Notes: a model not told the origin generated them from the sequence alone. A stretch of 5,697 bases of DNA from a virus (IMGVR_UViG_2695420871_000005); one strand, 5' to 3'. Positions 1 to 5,697 are shown, counted from the stretch's first letter. Numbers and translations: made by a program.

Positions 1-61
1 GGCAGCGGGCTTGTAATGGGTTAAGTGATAACAGATGTCTGGAAATATAGGGGCAAATCCA
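1..61 (+). mobile_element. IS2 right terminus (IRR end), partial; the body of the IS lies left of the window
   Basis: Positions 1-61 match my recollection of the last 61 bp of IS2 (...GGCAGCGGGCTTGTAATGGGTTAAGTGATAACAGATGTCTGGAAATATAGGGGCAAATCCA). Its reverse complement is a near-perfect inverted copy of 5642-5697. Identification is from memory, not a search. Confidence 0.75.
3..50 (+). CDS. 3' end of IS2 transposase OrfB (InsD), partial; start is outside the window
   Basis: In-frame translation of 3-47 gives [15 protein letters not shown] with TAG stop at 48-50, which matches the IS2 OrfB C-terminus as I recall it. Confidence 0.6.
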
Positions 62-160
62 CTTACGCTTATCTTCTCTTATTTTGAAATACAGATTCGT
101 CAGATAAGTCAGAAGCCCCAGAAGCAGACTTCCCAGCACACCAATCGCAGCCCACTGTGA
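62..160. repeat. 99-bp direct repeat, copy A (duplicate of holin 3' half), directly abutting the IS2 end
   Basis: 62-160 aligns with 723-821 at 97 of 99 positions (mismatches at 71 vs 732 and 97 vs 758). Homology begins exactly at the IS2 boundary and ends at ...cccactgtga. Confidence 0.9.
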
Positions 161-207
161 GACGATGATGCAGATAACCAGAGCGGAGATAATCGCGGTG
201 ACTCTGC

Positions 208-705
208 TCATTGCTGCCCCCACAAACAGACTTCACGCTCAATCTCACGACGGGTCATCAGCCCTTTCCATTGCTTACCGCCAGCATATGTCCAGCGACG
301 TAGCTGGTCACATGCGCCTTTGATATCGCCCTGGTTTATTTTGCGAAGAAGCGTCGATGTTCTGAAATTGCCAGCGCCCACGTTGTAAACGAACGAGTAA
401 AGAGCGCCGCGCGTTGTTTCCGGTATATCGACTTTGATGTACGGGTTAATTTGTCTGGCGACAGTGGCAAGGTCTTTATTCAGGAGGGCTTTGCATTCTG
501 CTTCGGTATACGTTTTACCGAGCATGATGTCTTTTCCGGTGTGTCCGTGACATACAGTCCATACACCAATGATATCTTTGTATGGTATGTAGCTGACACC
601 TTCCAGACCATCGTTACCACCTGGGCCAGTGATTAACACAGATGCTATAGCAACAGCCCCACCACCAATAGCAGCTGCAACAGCCTTGCGTAATGATGGC
701 GACAT
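208..705 (-). CDS. R: SAR endolysin (phage-21 R21-type lysozyme), 165 aa
   Basis: The N-terminus [30 protein letters not shown] is a Gly/Ala-rich weakly hydrophobic signal-arrest-release helix. E35, D44 and T50 ([17 protein letters not shown]) fit a T4-lysozyme-like catalytic triad. The start overlaps the holin stop at 705. Confidence 0.93.
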
Positions 706-920
706 TATTCACCTCTCGCAGCCTTACGCTTGTCTTCTCTTATTTTGAAATACAGATTTGTCAGATAAGTCAGAAGCCCCAGAAGCAGACTTCCCAGCAC
801 ACCAATCGCAGCCCACTGTGATGGACTGACCTGATCCAACCACTGCAAAAACCAGTAGCCGGCACTGCCGGCGGAGGTGCCGTAGGCAATGCCTGTTGAT
901 ATTTTTTCCATCTGATACAT
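705..920 (-). CDS. S: Class II pinholin / antiholin (phage-21 S21-type), 71 aa with dual start at Met1 and Met4
   Basis: [71 protein letters not shown] has two TMDs and a charged C-terminal tail, and the 71/68 dual-start arrangement of S21. It sits immediately upstream of the endolysin. Confidence 0.9.
723..821. repeat. 99-bp direct repeat, copy B, inside the intact holin gene (codons 34-66)
   Basis: Partner of 62-160; lies within the S coding sequence. Confidence 0.9.
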
Positions 921-948
921 ATCCCGCCCCCCGACAGACCTGTGCTAT

Positions 949-986
949 CGGAAAGAAAAAAGGCCATCAGCAAAACTCTGATGGCC
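949..986 (-). terminator. Intrinsic terminator about 30 nt upstream of S
   Basis: On the minus strand: stem GGCCATCAG (986-978), 7-nt loop, CTGATGGCC (970-962), followed by TTTTTTTCTTTCC (961-949). Confidence 0.6.
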
Positions 987-1031
987 TGAATCACCTTTAC
1001 CAATATTGTATGAAAAAACACGCACGACTAA

Positions 1032-1060
1032 TTGACAATAATTTTCATTTCCATTAAAAA
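1032..1060 (+). promoter_or_regulatory. Candidate sigma70 promoter pointing away from the lysis genes
   Basis: TTGACA at 1032-1037, 17-bp spacer, TAAAAA at 1055-1060. The -10 is weak because the final T is missing. Confidence 0.3.
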
Positions 1061-1066
1061 AGATCG

Positions 1067-1163
1067 CGTAGCATTCTTAATTCATGAGGAACTTTACCCG
1101 CCAGCAATCTGAGTAGCGAAAGCTGTTCATCCCCAATGTTTTTGCTGGCGGGTCCTTTTTTCT
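1067..1163 (+). ncRNA. Candidate small RNA of about 100 nt (hypothetical)
   Basis: Bounded by the candidate promoter at 1032-1060 and a plus-strand terminator at 1096-1163. The only ORF inside is 10 codons with no RBS. Not supported by homology. Confidence 0.25.
1096..1163 (+). terminator. Plus-strand terminator-like hairpin
   Basis: Perfect 12-bp stem ACCCGCCAGCAA (1096-1107) with TTGCTGGCGGGT (1142-1153), a 34-nt loop, then CCTTTTTTCT. A second GC hairpin with a T-rich tail follows at about 1172-1205. The T-runs are on the plus strand only. Confidence 0.4.
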
Positions 1164-1600
1164 ACGGTCCTCCTCCCCGGAGGGGGGCATTTCATTATTT
1201 TTCTAATCGTTACTGGTGAGAAGGCGGAAGAAAAAGCCAGTTCTTCGCCCCTAAATAACAGCATGATTCCAGTCCATGCAAAATCTGATTTCCAGCTCAC
1301 ACATACCGAGCACTGTACAAAAAACCGCCAGCCAAGGCAGTTAAGAGTGTGTTCCCGGGGTTTGCTTAGAATATTTTGTAAGTTGTCCGAAGAGATATTT
1401 ACAACACCAGAATGATGAATCATCAGTCCCCTGCCAGAGGTTCACTACGTAACCTGACCGACAATGCACCATTCTGGTGCTGAAAAAAGAGCACTGGAAC
1501 TGCAACAAAACAACATCACAGAACAGGAGATGGTAAGGAGTCAGACATTCCCACACAATATTGTGTCAGTGCAAATAACAACCTTCGTCTCAAATCTCGC

Positions 1601-1675
<75 letters not shown>

Positions 1676-1678
1676 ATA

Positions 1679-1754
<76 letters not shown>

Positions 1755-1759
1755 GCAGG

Positions 1760-1833
1760 CCCACCACCGAGGACTCGAACCTCGCACCGTCAACTTAGAA
1801 GGTTGATGCTCTATCCGGATGAGCTAGTGGTGG
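1760..1833 (-). tRNA. tRNA-Arg (anticodon UCU, reads AGA/AGG); 3' CCA not encoded
   Basis: Acceptor CCACCAC/GUGGUGG, D-stem GCUC/GAGC, anticodon stem UCAAC/GUUGA with loop CUUCUAA, T-arm CGAGG-UUCGAGU-CCUCG, discriminator G followed by CCU. Confidence 0.8.
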
Positions 1834-1834
1834 T

Positions 1835-1911
1835 TGGTGGCCCTTGCTGGACTTGAACCAGCGACCTGGCGATTATGAGTCGCTCGCTCTGACCAACTGA
1901 GCTAAAGGGCC
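1835..1911 (-). tRNA. tRNA-Ile2 (anticodon CAU, presumably lysidine-modified, reads AUA); ileX/ileZ-like
   Basis: GGCCCUUUAGCUCAG...GCGACUCAUAAUCGC...GGUUCAAGUCCAGCAAGGGCCACCA, with acceptor GGCCCUU/AAGGGCC. The body closely resembles E. coli tRNA-Ile2 as I recall it; the CAU anticodon alone cannot exclude tRNA-Met. Confidence 0.8.
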
Positions 1912-1920
1912 GGAGGCAGA

Positions 1921-1949
1921 ATAATAACCATATGTCATCACATCTGCAA
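1921..1949 (-). promoter_or_regulatory. Candidate sigma70 promoter for the tRNA cluster
   Basis: Minus strand: TTGCAG (1949-1944), 17-bp spacer, TATTAT (1926-1921), then the GC-rich discriminator TCTGCCTCC. The first tRNA 5' end at 1911 is about 10 nt downstream. Confidence 0.5.
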
Positions 1950-1998
1950 ACTCATCTGACCACCAGCACGTTTAACGTCCTGTGCCGTTTTTCAGGTA

Positions 1999-2022
1999 TA
2001 AAAAAACCCGCTCATCGGCGGG
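1999..2022 (-). terminator. Intrinsic terminator downstream of the ORF6N-like gene
   Basis: Minus strand: stem CCCGC/GCGGG (2022-2007, extendable by A-T pairs) with a 6-nt loop, followed by TTTTTTTAT (complement of the A-run at 1999-2006). Confidence 0.6.
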
Positions 2023-2100
2023 TTTAAGCTGTGTGGCGTAGTAACCACTCTTAACAGGATATTCAACTTTTTACGATCGTAAAGTTTTCGGAAAAAATTT

Positions 2101-2664
2101 TTAAAACCGCATCAACCGCTCCACCAGTTGCTCTTTACGGGCAACGATCCACCCGTGTTGCTCCAGATAAAATTTAAACCGTTCCAGAGTACATACCATC
2201 GCATCGGCGGGTACCTTTTCCGTGAACTCAACCTGACCGTGTTTATCGAAGTGGCTCAGTAATGCGCATCCATCATTTTCGATAGATGTGTTTTGTGCCG
2301 CTGGTGGCTGTTTCTGGTTGAAATAACAGTCTTCCAGTTTTTCGAACACTTCCCACGCCTGATCGGTTTCGAGCATTTTGGCGTGACGGGCTGCGCCACG
2401 TTCTGTCCAGAGGATGAGGGAGCGAACGTTACGGGCAATTTTCACAGAAACTCTTAAAGAGTTTTCGTTCTTCAACTCTCGTAACGCATCACCTTCTATC
2501 AGGAAAAAATGTTTACCTTCTATAAACCGTTCTTTGTTTCGATTGAAATTGTTTGTCAAACGCTGGCGCTCTGTTCCGTACAAATCAGCCAGCAGCTCTG
2601 TTGTCATGACAGGAAGATGGTTATGCGTAAGTGACGGGAGTTTTTCAATAGACGTGCGATTCAT
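2101..2664 (-). CDS. ORF6N-like phage protein (KilA-N/Bro-N superfamily, antirepressor-like DNA-binding N-domain) with an unassigned C-terminal domain, about 187 aa
   Basis: Start chosen at ATG 2664-2662 (AAGGA RBS 7 nt upstream); the ORF track's longer N-terminus (GTG at 2862) has no RBS. Motifs LADLYGTERQRLTNNFNRNKERFIEGKHFFLIEGDALREL and LWTERGAARHAKMLETDQAWEVFEKL fit my recollection of ORF6N. The C-terminal 80 aa have no recognisable family. Confidence 0.7.
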   Translation of the reverse strand: MNRTSIEKLPSLTHNHLPVMTTELLADLYGTERQRLTNNFNRNKERFIEGKHFFLIEGDALRELKNENSLRVSVKIARNVRSLILWTERGAARHAKMLETDQAWEVFEKLEDCYFNQKQPPAAQNTSIENDGCALLSHFDKHGQVEFTEKVPADAMVCTLERFKFYLEQHGWIVARKEQLVERLMRF

Positions 2665-2870
2665 AGACATGTCCTTTCGAATATTTTGATTTACCCCTTT
2701 TGAGAGGGTGACCGGGCGCTCAAAACCGTCGAAAGTCGGCGGGCGTATTTCCATTGCTGGTATTGTATTAGCCGCACACCCGGTCATAAACCAAGAATTC
2801 TGGACACAAAAAAACCACATGGCTATCGGGTGTGGATACCGCTTTCGAGGTGTTTTGAGCACCGCGGGGA

Positions 2871-2899
2871 AATGTAAACTGCAAACCTGAAACTGTCAA
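2871..2899 (-). promoter_or_regulatory. Candidate sigma70 promoter for the ORF6N moron
   Basis: Minus strand: perfect TTGACA (2899-2894), 17-bp spacer, TACATT (2876-2871). It would give a roughly 200-nt 5' UTR. Confidence 0.4.
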
Positions 2900-3024
2900 C
2901 ACCGTCAGGTTCCAATCATCGGGTGGTGAGACGCACAGGGTTGGAACTACCGGGAAACCGACCGGCGAGCTTTTCAGCTCCCCCATGCGCCCCACCATAA
3001 TTCAGATGTGCGCGTGCATACGAC

Positions 3025-3049
3025 AATAAAAAACACGCTCGCGGCGTGT
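3025..3049 (-). terminator. tR'-like intrinsic terminator downstream of the late promoter
   Basis: Minus strand: stem ACACGC/GCGTGT (3049-3033) with loop CGCGA, followed by TTTTTATT (3032-3025). Confidence 0.6.
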
Positions 3050-3110
3050 GTCTGTCGCGGTCTCTATCCGGGGTTCCAATCCCGACGCCAGATTTTGCTG
3101 GCGCGTGAGG

Positions 3111-3140
3111 AATATAGCCCCGGACAATGTGTCTGGTCAA
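3111..3140 (-). promoter_or_regulatory. PR'-like late promoter (target of Q antitermination)
   Basis: Minus strand: TTGACC (3140-3135), 18-bp spacer, TATATT (3116-3111), starting 4 nt after the Q stop codon. A hairpin CGCCAG/CTGGCG lies in the early transcribed region (about 3083-3104). Confidence 0.6.
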
Positions 3141-3144
3141 GCAC

Positions 3145-3531
3145 CTACATAATTCGTTCTACGTATCTGTCCATCTCCAGCCGGATATCAAGCATCATCA
3201 ACATGCCATCAATAACCCCTTCCGCTTTCTGCAGGCGCTTGCCAATACAGGTATCCGAACACCCATGTTTCCGTGCCAGACTCATAAAAGTCATTCCACC
3301 TACGTAATAATCCACCAGCAAATCGTGCAAATCCTGATTTTTCTTGTTCAACCGGGCCATACAGCCACAAATTATCATTGCATCATCATCAGAACACTGA
3401 GGGCGTGATTTCACTTTCGACGGAATTAACCCTTTAAAACCAGCAGCGATCGACGCCCAGGATACATCTTCATGAGTGTTTGCAGCCCAAGCCCCCCACC
3501 GTTCCATAACCTGCTGAATATCACGCGCCAT
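3145..3531 (-). CDS. quuD: Late-gene antiterminator Q (phage-82 / DLP12 QuuD family), about 128 aa
   Basis: [61 protein letters not shown]... closely matches QuuD as I recall it, including the cysteine cluster. Start chosen at Met8 of the track ORF (GGTGA RBS 5 nt upstream). It is followed directly by the PR'-like promoter. Confidence 0.88.
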
Positions 3532-3892
3532 CGTTATCACCTGTGATTTCATAAATCTTCACGCCCAGTCGCCCACCAGGAACGAGCTGACCGCGCACAA
3601 TATTGATTTCATCAAACTGCTCGTCGTCTATGAGTAGTCCGGCATGCGTCAGCGCATCCAGTGGTGCTTTCAGGATATTGTCCAGGTCACGACGGCGCTT
3701 ATCCGGTGGCTCTGCAATAATCTTTATCGCCAGCCTTCCGGACAGGTTTAATTTCAGCCGCTGCTGGCGAACAATTAGCGTCACATCACGGCGATAACGC
3801 TCACCAACTTTTGATACAAAATATGTGCTGCCACGACGTCGCCAGTAAGTATTCACCGTCGGCGGATAAGGTAAAATAAACTCATGGCGCAT
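3521..3892 (-). CDS. rusA: RusA-family Holliday-junction resolvase, 123 aa
   Basis: [22 protein letters not shown]... with the acidic catalytic motif RRRDLDN and downstream LIDDEQ. AGGAGG RBS 10 nt upstream. The start overlaps the upstream stop; the 3' end overlaps the Q start by 11 nt. Confidence 0.88.
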
Positions 3893-4149
3893 CAGCGCAG
3901 CACCTCCTGCACCATTTTTTCAAACTTTCCAACTTTGGTTTCCAGCTCTGCCACACAATCAACGAGCTCATCCACCGCTTTTTGTGCGCGATGTTTCGCC
4001 TGCATCAGTTCCCTGAGCGCTGGCACCATATCCCGACGAATGGCATCTTTTGTTACACCTGTTTTTTCCAGTTGTTCCGCCTGTCGCAACATTTCCTGCG
4101 CGTGTTTACGCAATTGTTCAGAGGTAAAAGTCATTGTCTGGTTGTTCAA
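3892..4149 (-). CDS. Hypothetical small protein (85 aa from TTG, or 80 aa from ATG at 4134), predicted helical/coiled-coil, family not recognised
   Basis: TTG at 4149 lies 7 nt after a GGAG RBS and overlaps the helicase stop (TTGA). The sequence ...LRQAEQLEKTGVTKDAIRRDMVPALRELMQAKHRAQKAVDELVDCVAELETKVGKFEKMVQEVLR is charged and helical. It sits in the nin-region position between the helicase and rusA. Confidence 0.55.
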   Translation of the reverse strand: MNNQTMTFTSEQLRKHAQEMLRQAEQLEKTGVTKDAIRRDMVPALRELMQAKHRAQKAVDELVDCVAELETKVGKFEKMVQEVLR

Positions 4150-5537
4150 AAGAAACGCTCCATCTTACTGCTGTCGGTACGTGTATTGCTGTATCTGCGC
4201 GGCTGGGGCTGCCGCATTGGGGTGGAAAGAACCTGTGCGCTTTCCTGGTCCACAGGCAGAAAATGTCCGTTATAAAAACGCCGGTAAATCGTCCCCAGAG
4301 AACCGTTACGTTGTTTCGTGATATTAATTTCTGCTATGCCTGTAGCCTGTGTATCCGGGTTGTACACTTCATCCCTGTAAAGCATCAGAATGATGTCTGC
4401 ATCCGCCTCTATTTCTCCGGAATTTTTCAGGTCTGAGTTCATGGGACGTTTATTGGGTCTGGACTCCACACCGCGGGAGAGCTGGCTCAGCGCAATCAAC
4501 GGAAAACCACCGGATTTTGCCAGGCCTTTAAGCCCCTTTGAGATTTCACCCACGGCAAGGTCATGACGCCCCGTGGTTCGGGTTTTTATCAGCCCGAGAT
4601 AATCAACCACCACCAGCGCCGTTTCCGGATGTTTAATCAGATGGTGTTTCGTTGTTGCGCATATCTCATCAATGGTCAGGTTCGCCTGGTCCACCATCCA
4701 GATATTGCGCCCGGTCATCCGCCCCACCCCTTGTGAGAAACGCGCCCAGTCTTCATCTTCAAAGTGAGCCACAGATTTCAGGCGTGATACTGGCATCCCT
4801 CCAGCCGCAGACACCATACGTTCACCAATCTGGATGTTCGCCATCTCCATGGTGAACAGAAGCACACCATGCCCCTGCTCAGTCACCTTGTCGATGATGT
4901 CCAGCGCAAGTTCGGTTTTCCCCATCGAAGGACGGGCGGCAATGAATACCAGGTCTCCGGGCTCCATACCGCCTGTTTTTGCGTCCAGTTCATCAATACC
5001 GGTCATCAACGTCCTGGATTTCTCCAGCCCCTGATTCCGGCATTCAACACGCTCAACCACTTCCGGAAGCACATCATCAATATGTACCGGCTGAATGACG
5101 CCCTTTCCTGTCGACAGTGTGACCATCATGTTCTGCGCATCCTTCAGGGCATCTTCAGCTGCTTCACAGGTATGCGCATCACGTAATTTCTGCAGCGCCT
5201 CATTCAGTGTTTTTTCTGCATCGCGCAGTGCGGCATTGCGCCGCAACGCTGCAACATAGTGCTCCAGTGAAGACTTCACCCAGGTTTTACGCCCGGTATC
5301 AGTAATCACCGGGGCAAGTTCCGGCATCTCATTACACAACAGCACGGGGTCAATCACTCCTGAAACACGGGCCTGTCTGCAGATGCCTGTGTAGATATCC
5401 CGATACGCTCGTACAGAAAAAATGTCCGCCGGTAGTGTGATCAGAATATCCATCACTTCATGATCTGCCCCACGCAGAAAGAATGCGCCAATGACAGCGC
5501 CTTCCAGGTCATCATTACGCCAGACTGGTGTTGTCAT
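4146..5537 (-). CDS. DnaB-family replicative DNA helicase (P22 gene-12-like), 463 aa
   Basis: Start chosen at MTTPVWRNDDLEGAVIGAFFL (ATG 5537-5535, GAGGTG RBS 7 nt upstream) rather than the track's Met at 5678, which lies inside the IS. Walker A is ARPSMGKTELALDI, Walker B is ALVVVDYLGLI, with IALSQLSR and a DnaB-like N-terminal domain. Confidence 0.9.
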   Translation of the reverse strand: MTTPVWRNDDLEGAVIGAFFLRGADHEVMDILITLPADIFSVRAYRDIYTGICRQARVSGVIDPVLLCNEMPELAPVITDTGRKTWVKSSLEHYVAALRRNAALRDAEKTLNEALQKLRDAHTCEAAEDALKDAQNMMVTLSTGKGVIQPVHIDDVLPEVVERVECRNQGLEKSRTLMTGIDELDAKTGGMEPGDLVFIAARPSMGKTELALDIIDKVTEQGHGVLLFTMEMANIQIGERMVSAAGGMPVSRLKSVAHFEDEDWARFSQGVGRMTGRNIWMVDQANLTIDEICATTKHHLIKHPETALVVVDYLGLIKTRTTGRHDLAVGEISKGLKGLAKSGGFPLIALSQLSRGVESRPNKRPMNSDLKNSGEIEADADIILMLYRDEVYNPDTQATGIAEINITKQRNGSLGTIYRRFYNGHFLPVDQESAQVLSTPMRQPQPRRYSNTRTDSSKMERFF

Positions 5538-5641
5538 GCAGCCACACCTCTGATACAAGAACGGTAGCTGGGCCAGTTGAACGACAACCAGTTGCGCCCC
5601 CCGTCTGTGATCCTGTCGGCAATGCGGGGGCTGATGAACGC
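5534..5641 (-). pseudogene. 3' fragment of the gene upstream of the helicase (probably a replication initiator), truncated by the IS2-like insertion
   Basis: An open frame ending ...FISPRIADRITDGGRNWLSFNWPSYRSCIRGVAA with its TGA overlapping the helicase ATG (ATGA), typical of coupled phage replication genes. The frame runs into the IS terminus at 5642, so the native 5' part is missing. Too short for a confident family call. Confidence 0.35.
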
Positions 5642-5697
5642 TGGATTTGCCCCTATATTTCCAGACACCTGTTATCACTTAACCCATTACTGGCTTG
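5642..5697 (-). mobile_element. IS2-family terminus (IRR-type end), diverged variant, inverted relative to the left-edge copy; the body lies right of the window
   Basis: 5642-5690 is the reverse complement of 13-61 with one mismatch (C at 5668 vs T). The inner 7 nt diverge, and the differences are silent or conservative in the transposase frame (A-S-N-G vs A-C-N-G), suggesting a distinct functional IS2 isoform rather than the same copy. Confidence 0.7.

What the first reader, a model, noticed from the sequence alone, without database searches (positions are those of the whole stretch)
1..5697. Prophage segment bracketed by two non-identical IS2-family ends in inverted orientation
Both window edges are IS2 IRR-type termini facing inward (1-61 on plus, 5642-5697 inverted). 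The right copy differs at several positions that are silent or conservative in the transposase frame, so these are two distinct IS2 isoforms, not one repeat collapsed by assembly. The left IS abuts the rearranged lysis cassette and the right IS truncates the replication gene upstream of the helicase. The 5.58-kb helicase-to-lysis block is therefore an IS-delimited prophage remnant that could invert or delete by IS-IS recombination, or move as a composite unit.
Basis: partly seen in the sequence, partly recalled or inferred. Interest (0 to 1): 0.55.

Follow-up and report, generated by a model that had tools for sequence, protein, structure and literature searches.

The report
IS2-bounded contig of Shigella prophage
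This is an ordinary piece of a decayed Shigella sonnei prophage whose sequence stops at both ends in copies of the common jumping gene IS2; the right copy is a real boundary of the prophage, the left one is attached through an odd one-off join, and the pair cannot move the block as a unit.

Summary
Bases 1-61 are the last 61 nt of canonical IS2. Bases 5642-5697 are the inverted last 56 nt of a second IS2 isoform, 97.6% identical over its full length. Both right ends (IRR) face inward.

Bases 161-5697 are 99.96% identical to a phiP27-like prophage remnant ("A") in complete Shigella sonnei genomes. There the right IS2 is full length, cuts a DnaC-like helicase-loader gene down to 35 codons, has no target duplication, and abuts non-phage DNA. 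It is therefore a real rearrangement boundary.

In every complete genome examined, prophage A runs on past the lysozyme into Rz, HNH, terminase and portal genes. No IS2 sits there.

The window's left 160 nt are instead 100% identical to a different S. sonnei prophage ("B"), whose holin carries a simple IS2 insertion with target duplication GTAAG. That piece meets Rz codon 17 through an in-frame join with 1 nt of microhomology. I found this join in no other sequence. The next 139 nt are identical in A and B.

So the left bracket is either a private rearrangement or an assembly mis-link. Inverted copies can invert but not delete. With both left ends (IRL) outward, IS2 cannot mobilise the block. 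IS-bounded contigs are routine in Shigella.

The parts
1..61 (+). Right end (IRR side, nt 1271-1331) of canonical IS2; the IS body lies to the left, outside the window
   Evidence: 100% identical to K-12 IS2A and to the IS2 copy in the prophage-B holin of S. sonnei
62..160 (-). 99-nt holin fragment (codons 34-66) of the prophage-B allele. Bases 62-66 (CTTAC) are one copy of the GTAAG target duplication of that IS2 insertion
   Evidence: Bases 1-160 are 100% identical to L013 10250-10091. There are 2 mismatches to the window's own holin at 723-821
160..161 (.). Unique non-homologous join between Rz codon 17 and holin codon 34. It has 1 nt of microhomology and is in frame
   Evidence: Searches show the three sequences side by side. 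The join is absent from E. coli complete genomes, the protein collection, GTDB representative genomes and JGI metagenomes
161..211 (-). First 17 codons of the i-spanin gene Rz ([17 protein letters not shown])
   Evidence: Bases 161-299 are identical in prophages A and B
208..705 (-). Phage lysozyme (endolysin), 165 aa
   Evidence: Pfam PF00959, E = 2e-45
705..920 (-). Class II holin (phage 21 S type), 71 aa, intact
   Evidence: Pfam PF04971, E = 1.5e-35
1601..1911 (-). Cluster of four tRNA genes: CAT (Met, or Ile2), Arg-TCT, Thr-TGT, Gly-TCC
   Evidence: ARAGORN and Rfam. The CAT tRNA is annotated tRNA-Ile in the relative VL40
2101..2664 (-). ORF6N-domain (antirepressor-like) gene, 187 aa
   Evidence: Pfam PF10543, E = 9e-21
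2702..3117 (-). Small-RNA region between Q and the ORF6N gene, with matches to isrK, C4 antisense RNA, its a1/b1 targets, and sRNA-Xcc1
   Evidence: Rfam matches above gathering scores
3145..3531 (-). Late-gene antiterminator Q, 128 aa
   Evidence: Pfam PF06530, E = 2e-52
3521..3892 (-). RusA Holliday-junction resolvase, 123 aa
   Evidence: Pfam PF05866
3892..4149 (-). 85-aa protein of unknown function, conserved next to the helicase
   Evidence: No Pfam family above cut-off. Called as a gene in all related loci
4146..5537 (-). DnaB-type replicative helicase, 463 aa
   Evidence: Pfam PF03796, E = 8e-73. The exact protein occurs in 3506 blocks of the assembly collection
5537..5641 (-). Last 35 codons of a DnaC/IstB-like helicase-loader gene, cut off by IS2
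   Evidence: 34 of 35 residues identical to residues 258-292 of the intact 292-aa gene of E. coli VL40, which matches PF01695
5642..5697 (-). Right end (IRR side, nt 1331 back to 1276) of a second IS2 isoform; the IS body lies to the right, outside the window
   Evidence: Continuous with a 1331-bp IS2, 97.6% identical to K-12 IS2, in L002-L010

Best explanation
The window is a short-read contig from Shigella sonnei, or a very close relative. It covers the helicase-to-lysis part of a degraded phiP27-like lambdoid prophage ('A'). It ends on both sides where the assembler ran into multi-copy IS2.

Right end. This is a genuine, fixed, full-length IS2 isoform. It removed all but 35 codons of the DnaC-like loader gene and everything upstream. 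It has no 5-bp target duplication, and non-phage DNA lies beyond it. It therefore marks an IS-associated deletion or rearrangement boundary.

Left end. These 160 nt are not the normal neighbour of the block. They are the IS2-plus-holin junction of a second prophage ('B'), where IS2 inserted simply after holin codon 66 with target duplication GTAAG. They are joined to Rz codon 17 by an illegitimate join with 1 nt of microhomology. The join is either private to this isolate or not physically linked to prophage A at all.

Mobility. The two IS2 copies are independent insertions of an expanded IS family, not the arms of a composite transposon. Homologous recombination between them could only invert the block. 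IS2 transposition needs an IRR donor paired with an IRL recipient, and it could not move the block.

Shown here: the identities, junctions, target duplications and contexts in complete genomes. Inferred: the short-read origin of the contig and the nature of the 160/161 join.
For: Identity of the ends:
- Both ends match IS2 right ends as described under the observation check.

Placement of the block:
- Bases 160-5697 are 99.96% identical (2 SNPs) to S. sonnei loci L002, L004 (strain 53G), L009 and L011.
- In those loci the gene order is IS2, helicase, 85-aa gene, RusA, Q, ORF6N gene, tRNAs, holin, lysozyme, Rz, HNH, TerS, TerL, portal.

Right IS2:
- Its flanks are GTTGC and GCGTT, so there is no target duplication.
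- The neighbour beyond it is an AIDA-type autotransporter fragment.
- The rest of the loader gene is absent within 10 kb.
- The intact ancestral arrangement is seen in E. coli VL40.

Left 160 nt:
- Bases 1-160 are 100% identical to prophage B, L013-L022.
- The holin::IS2 fusion protein P0001 occurs in 234 blocks and is annotated as S. sonnei lysis protein S.
- That insertion has target duplication GTAAG.
- The A and B loci are at 3.76 Mb and 1.07 Mb on opposite strands in CP044191.1.
- Bases 161-299 are identical in A and B.

Contig lengths and background:
- The helicase lies mostly on contigs of 2-20 kb (3216 of 3506 blocks), as expected if assemblies break at IS copies and at the repeated lysis cassette.
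- Shigella chromosomes carry 229-348 IS copies, with IS2 among the five expanded families, and they share IS2 variants distinct from those of E. coli (PMC7373316).
- IS2 IRL lacks donor function, and elements with two left ends make no minicircles (PMC3299598).
Against: - The 160/161 join has only 1 nt of overlap, so no k-mer or overlap assembler could create it from reference-like sequence. It must be present in reads, so something unusual does exist in the source DNA or library.
- The contig carries prophage-A alleles consistently at all 8 A/B-discriminating sites in 300-674 and at the 2 in the holin. This suggests the assembler was resolving the paralogues correctly, so the left IS2 may really adjoin the block in this isolate.
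- I could not identify the source assembly or its reads.
- In some complete genomes (L002, L005, L006, L008, L010) the prophage remnant really is bracketed by inverted IS2 copies with IRR inward, although over 11.1 kb.
Confidence: 0.8

Rival explanations
1. The contig is correct as assembled. In this isolate a private rearrangement joined Rz codon 17 of prophage A to holin codon 34 of the IS2-interrupted prophage-B cassette. Possible routes are break repair or template switching copied from the paralogous cassette, or an A-B exchange. The 5.58-kb block would then truly lie between two inverted IS2 copies.
For: - The join cannot be a k-mer artefact, because the overlap is 1 nt.
- The partner is a paralogous lysis cassette in the same transcriptional orientation and reading frame, not random DNA.
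- A-specific alleles are kept across several A/B-identical stretches of 139-159 nt.
- Lysis cassettes of S. sonnei prophages visibly exchange sequence: there is a 21-SNP patch in the lysozyme of L003 and L007.
- Other S. sonnei assemblies carry another short-homology junction at this same IS2. In P0125 and P0128, 27 nt of IRR are fused to the lysozyme start.
Against: - The join is found in no other assembly, protein or contig searched.
- The reciprocal product is not on record.
- A simple A-B exchange would invert about 2.7 Mb asymmetrically about the replication axis.
- The stretch that links the join to prophage A (161-299) is identical in A and B.
Confidence: 0.35
2. The join is real but sits in prophage B. 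For example, it could be the novel junction of a roughly 2-kb tandem duplication running from holin codon 34 through IS2 and the lysozyme to Rz codon 17. The contig would then be an A/B chimera threaded through the 139-nt stretch that is identical in both cassettes. Alternatively, the join is a library chimera. Either way the left IS2 is not next to the prophage-A block.
For: - Bases 1-299 are 100% identical to prophage-B sequence on both sides of the join.
- An Rz(17)-to-holin(34) junction is exactly what a head-to-tail duplication of that segment would create, and it needs one event only.
- All complete genomes show Rz_A continuing into HNH and terminase genes.
- The lysis cassette is a repeat with long exact stretches, where many assemblies break (contig-length distribution).
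Against: - Assemblers usually break at such forks rather than thread through them.
- The contig stays on A alleles everywhere else.
- No duplication of this kind is seen in the complete genomes read.
Confidence: 0.4
3. The two IS2 copies and the block form a composite transposon that moves the Q, tRNA and lysis genes as a unit.
For: Two IS2 ends flank the block. In some genomes two full IS2 copies bracket the larger remnant.
Against: - The outer ends would both be IRL, which lacks donor function. Derivatives with two left ends form no minicircles (PMC3299598).
- The inward IRR pair defines the rest of the chromosome as the 'element', not the block.
- The outer flanks of the reference copies differ (CTTAC and GCAAC), so there is no shared duplication.
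- The block is found only at this one chromosomal context.
Confidence: 0.02

Closest known systems
IS2 (IS3 family) insertions in Shigella sonnei chromosomes, e.g. strain 53G (HE616528.1)
   Same: The terminal sequences are identical. The right copy sits at exactly the same site, with the same flank, as in all complete S. sonnei genomes read. The left junction is identical to the fixed IS2 insertion in a prophage holin gene. IS2 is one of the five IS families expanded in all Shigella (PMC7373316).
   Different: In the window the holin::IS2 junction is attached to Rz codon 17 of another prophage rather than to the rest of its own holin. That join is unique to this sequence.
phiP27-like lambdoid (Stx-phage-type) prophages of E. 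coli, e.g. phage phiP27 and the intact prophage of E. coli VL40
   Same: The gene order is DnaC-like loader, DnaB helicase, small ORF, (RusA), Q, tRNA cluster, class II holin, lysozyme, Rz. The helicase region is 94% identical to phiP27 and the block is 97% identical over 67% of its length to VL40.
   Different: The early region is deleted at the IS2. There is no stx gene in the slot between the tRNAs and the holin. An ORF6N antirepressor gene with a C4/isrK-type RNA module follows Q. The prophage is a remnant broken by IS2 and IS4.
Composite transposons built from IS3-family elements
   Same: Two copies of one IS flank a block of passenger genes.
   Different: The copies are inverted with IRR inward. 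Both outer ends are therefore IRL, which cannot act as donor in IS2 circle formation. There is no common target duplication and no second location.

Membership tests
IS2 (IS3 family, IS2 group) | Terminal sequence of the right inverted repeat ending ...GGGGCAAATCCA (CA-3' donor end) | tested here: met
   Bases 1-61 are 100% identical to nt 1271-1331 of K-12 IS2A. Bases 5642-5697 match a 97.6% isoform
IS2 (IS3 family, IS2 group) | Full element of about 1331 bp with orfA (HTH) and orfB (DDE/rve) transposase genes | tested here: met
   Not testable in the window itself, which holds only 56-61 nt per end. In related loci both copies are 1331 bp with InsC (121 aa) and InsD (301 aa) and match Pfam HTH_Tnp_1 and rve
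IS2 (IS3 family, IS2 group) | 5-bp target-site duplication for a simple insertion | tested here: inconclusive
   Met for the copy in the prophage-B holin, GTAAG on both sides. Not met for the right copy, GTTGC against GCGTT, which indicates a later rearrangement. The outer flank of the window's own left copy is unknown
Composite transposon | Outer ends able to act together in transposition | tested here: not met
   The orientation gives IRL at both outer ends. IS2 IRL lacks donor function, and elements with two left ends make no minicircles (PMC3299598)
Composite transposon | One target duplication flanking the whole IS-block-IS unit | tested here: not met
   The outer flanks of the reference copies are CTTAC and GCAAC. 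This assumes the left copy is the prophage-B copy
Composite transposon | The same unit found at more than one genomic site | tested here: not met
   Only one chromosomal context appears in all loci read. There is no match covering at least 80% of the window in 5426 E. coli genomes
Lambdoid prophage (late-regulation and lysis region) | Q antiterminator followed by holin, endolysin and spanin genes, with nin-region genes (RusA) and replication genes upstream | tested here: met
   Pfam matches to DnaB_C, RusA, Phage_antitermQ, Phage_holin_2_1 and Phage_lysozyme. Rz is truncated at codon 17. The order is the same as in VL40 and phiP27

The most novel reading that the evidence does not exclude
The 160/161 join is a real, isolate-specific event. 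In it, a break in the Rz gene of one prophage was repaired or replicated using the IS2-interrupted lysis cassette of a second prophage about 2.7 Mb away. This would create an in-frame Rz(1-17)::holin(34-66) membrane-protein fusion and place a second, inverted IS2 next to the block. It would be a caught-in-the-act example of microhomology-mediated exchange between paralogous prophage remnants in Shigella.
Probability: 0.35. Interest if true: 0.25.

Novelty: already known. Interest (0 to 1): 0.12.

Why it matters
It matters little beyond bookkeeping. IS expansion and IS-broken prophages are a well-described hallmark of Shigella genome decay, and short-read contigs ending in IS termini are their routine signature.

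There are two useful lessons. First, two IS ends at the edges of a contig do not show that the sequence between them is an IS-delimited unit. Here the reference genomes show 5.6 kb more prophage beyond one 'end'. Second, the orientation of IS2 ends decides what recombination and transposition can do. Inverted copies with IRR inward allow inversion only and give no composite mobility.

The one unusual item is the unique join with 1 nt of microhomology between two prophage lysis cassettes. It would be a minor example of illegitimate exchange between paralogous prophage remnants if reads confirm it.

Tried and rejected
- I searched all 5426 complete E. coli genomes with the whole window and with bases 1-330. 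No record holds at least 80% of the window. No record has the 62-330 arrangement in one piece. The best 'places' are two pieces in the normal holin-lysozyme order.
- I searched the 5.8-billion-cluster protein collection with the predicted Rz'::holin'::IS2 read-through protein. Only holin::IS2 and Rz::IS2 fusions came back, never the chimera.
- Exact look-ups of ten possible full and contig-end-truncated versions of the chimera, and of two versions of the reciprocal holin(1-33)::Rz(18-154) product, were all absent.
- Exact scans for the 50-nt junction in GTDB representative genomes and JGI metagenomes found nothing. A scan of the GTDB representatives for a 36-mer carrying the window-specific SNP at 1757 also found nothing. 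Shigella is probably not represented separately in that set.
- I considered that IS2 might have carried the 99-nt flank by using a surrogate end inside the holin. I rejected this because the sequence at the join shows no resemblance to the conserved IS2 end motifs (by eye against IRR and IRL, output), and the flank lies on the IRR side, which is the obligatory donor end.
- I considered a de Bruijn or overlap misassembly at the join and rejected it, because the overlap is only 1 nt.
- I tried to infer the assembler from the 61-nt and 56-nt extents into IS2, without a conclusion.


Full report
**1. The observation**

The window's ends form a 49-nt inverted repeat, 13-61 against 5642-5690, that is 98% complementary. 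I fetched IS2A of E. coli K-12 as a reference.

- Bases 1-61 equal the last 61 nt of IS2 (nt 1271-1331) with no mismatch.
- The reverse complement of 5642-5697 equals the last 56 nt of a second isoform. In complete genomes that isoform is a full 1331-bp element differing from K-12 IS2 at 32 positions, 97.6% identity. Its InsC is unchanged and its InsD has nine amino-acid replacements.
- Both are the IRR end, and both face the 5580-nt block at 62-5641.
- Within the shared 56 nt there are five differences: R288Q, silent A289, C290S and a silent Arg codon in InsD.

**2. What the block is**

On the minus strand the window encodes the following (Pfam; tRNAs):

- the last 35 codons of a DnaC/IstB-like helicase loader
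- a DnaB-type helicase (463 aa)
- an 85-aa ORF
- RusA
- the antiterminator Q
- an ORF6N antirepressor-like gene
- four tRNA genes (CAT, Arg-TCT, Thr-TGT, Gly-TCC)
- a phage-21-type class II holin
- a lysozyme
- the first 17 codons of Rz

The nearest isolated phage is phiP27, 94% identical over the helicase region. An intact relative sits in E. coli VL40. There the gene upstream of the helicase is a 292-aa AAA+ loader, and its residues 258-292 match the window's remnant at 34 of 35 positions.

**3. Where it comes from**

The exact helicase protein occurs in 3506 blocks of the public assembly collection. The long contigs carrying it are Shigella sonnei chromosomes, including strain 53G, HE616528.1. 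Bases 160-5697 align to these loci at 99.96%. The two differences, at 1312 and 1757, are both intergenic. I call this locus prophage A.

**4. The right IS2**

In all ten loci the right IS2 is full length and sits at exactly the window's junction.

- Its two flanks are GTTGC and GCGTT, so there is no 5-bp duplication.
- The DNA beyond it encodes an AIDA-type autotransporter fragment and DUF5507/5508 proteins, not phage genes.
- The first 257 codons of the loader gene are nowhere within 10 kb.

It also marks a deletion or rearrangement boundary of the prophage that is fixed in S. sonnei.

**5. The left end**

In every complete genome read, prophage A continues past the lysozyme. It runs into a full Rz (154-155 aa), an HNH endonuclease, small and large terminase subunits and a portal gene interrupted by IS4. 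The window follows this sequence only down to base 160/161, which is Rz codon 17.

Bases 1-160 are instead 100% identical to a different S. sonnei locus, prophage B, L013-L022.

- There, IS2 is inserted after holin codon 66 with a perfect GTAAG duplication.
- This gives the annotated fusion protein 'lysis protein S', P0001, seen in 234 blocks.
- In CP044191.1 prophage A lies at 3.76 Mb and prophage B at 1.07 Mb, on opposite strands.

The join links Rz codon 17 to holin codon 34. It has one shared nucleotide and is in frame.

I could not find this join anywhere else:

- not in 5426 complete E. coli genomes
- not among homologues in the 5.8-billion-cluster protein set
- not as any of ten exact full or truncated versions of the chimeric protein
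- not as the reciprocal product
- not in GTDB representative genomes or JGI metagenomes

**6. How secure is the link?**

Two facts pull in opposite directions.

First, a 1-nt overlap cannot be produced by a k-mer or overlap assembler. The join must therefore exist in reads.

Second, the 139 nt next to the join (161-299) are identical in prophages A and B. The first A/B-discriminating base is at 300. So the left 160 nt are tied to the A block only through sequence that cannot tell the two loci apart.

Three readings remain:

1. A private rearrangement that really places the B-type holin'::IS2 next to prophage A.
2. A real junction located in prophage B, with the contig threaded wrongly through the shared 139 nt. 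An Rz(17)-to-holin(34) join is exactly the novel junction of a roughly 2-kb tandem duplication spanning IS2 and the lysozyme.
3. A library chimera.

In favour of (1): the contig keeps A alleles at all eight discriminating lysozyme sites and both holin sites. S. sonnei lysis cassettes demonstrably exchange sequence, as shown by a 21-SNP patch in L003 and L007. Other assemblies show another short-homology junction at this same IS2, in P0125 and P0128.

In favour of (2) and (3): the join is unique. All complete genomes show the canonical continuation. A simple A-B exchange would need a large asymmetric inversion.

I cannot decide among these without the reads.

**7. What the IS2 pair can and cannot do**

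The two copies are inverted, so homologous recombination between them would invert the block. It could not delete it.

For transposition, IS2 uses a copy-out, paste-in route. In it IRR is the only donor end and IRL the exclusive recipient. Derivatives with two left ends make no minicircles (PMC3299598).

A composite unit carrying the block would have IRL at both outer ends. The inward IRR pair encloses the rest of the chromosome, not the block. The outer flanks of the reference copies (CTTAC and GCAAC) are not a shared duplication. The block has only one genomic context. Composite mobility is therefore not supported.

**8. A partial vindication**

In five of the complete genomes (L002, L005, L006, L008, L010) a second, canonical IS2 has inserted into the IS4 that interrupts the portal gene. 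Its IRR faces prophage A. In those strains the remnant really is bracketed by two inverted IS2 copies with IRR inward, but over 11.1 kb rather than 5.58 kb. No inversion of the block relative to its left neighbours is seen in any of the ten loci.

**9. Comparison with what is known, and verdict**

Shigella chromosomes carry 229-348 IS copies. IS2 is one of five families expanded in all Shigella species, and Shigella shares IS2 variants distinct from those of E. coli (PMC7373316).

A prophage remnant cut by IS2, and a short-read contig that stops in IS2 at both ends, are what this biology routinely produces. The helicase sits on contigs of 2-20 kb in 3216 of 3506 blocks. The finding is a correct observation of an ordinary, already known situation.

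The only unusual element is the unique join at 160/161. It is of minor interest, and only if reads confirm it.

Noticed in passing
window 2702-3117 (minus strand): Between Q and the ORF6N antirepressor-like gene, Rfam finds isrK (3028-3104), the a1/b1 targets of C4 (3065-3117), C4 antisense RNA (2919-3002) and sRNA-Xcc1 (2702-2785). All score above their gathering thresholds. This looks like a P1/P7 immI-type (c4-ant) or Gifsy-1 isrK-type small-RNA and antirepressor module placed in the late operon of a lambdoid prophage.
   Followed up: partly
window 1601-1911 (minus strand): A cluster of four tRNA genes (CAT, annotated tRNA-Ile in a relative; Arg-TCT; Thr-TGT; Gly-TCC) lies between the ORF6N gene and the holin. 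This is the slot where Stx phages carry their tRNAs and stx genes. The about 680 nt between the tRNAs and the holin (921-1600) hold no called gene and no stx remnant that I looked for.
   Followed up: partly
window 961-987 and 2004-2025 (minus strand): There are strong terminator-like hairpins with T runs, one just upstream of the holin start and one just after the ORF6N gene. These are presumably terminators read through under Q antitermination.
   Followed up: no
L003 and L007, region equivalent to window 200-676: In two complete S. sonnei genomes the prophage-A lysozyme carries a patch of 21 SNPs relative to the window and to the other genomes. It matches neither the A nor the B allele, with 28 differences to B in the same genome. 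This suggests gene conversion from a third prophage lysis cassette.
   Followed up: partly
proteins P0125, P0128, P0129, P0130, P0133, P0134 (members of the P0001 cluster): Several S. sonnei assemblies encode holin(1-66) plus 9 codons of the IS2 IRR, fused directly to the out-of-frame start of the lysozyme gene. This is an about 1.3-kb loss of almost the whole IS2, apparently at a CATC microhomology. It may be a clade-specific deletion or a pipeline artefact.
   Followed up: partly
L002, L005, L006, L008, L010 at about 20985: A canonical IS2 is inserted into the IS4 that interrupts the prophage-A portal gene. It is present in five of ten complete genomes and absent in 53G, so it is a lineage-marking IS2 insertion. 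In those strains it makes the 11.1-kb remnant IS2-bracketed.
   Followed up: partly
L002 8536-8565 and 9897-9926 (flanks of the right IS2): The fixed IS2 isoform next to the helicase has no target duplication. It abuts a 459-aa AIDA-type autotransporter fragment, so an IS2-associated deletion or inversion joined prophage DNA to a degraded adhesin locus.
   Followed up: partly
window 1312 and 1757: Two intergenic SNPs (A where the references have G, and A where they have T) distinguish the window from all ten complete S. sonnei loci read. The source may therefore be a lineage not represented among them, or these may be sequencing errors.
   Followed up: partly
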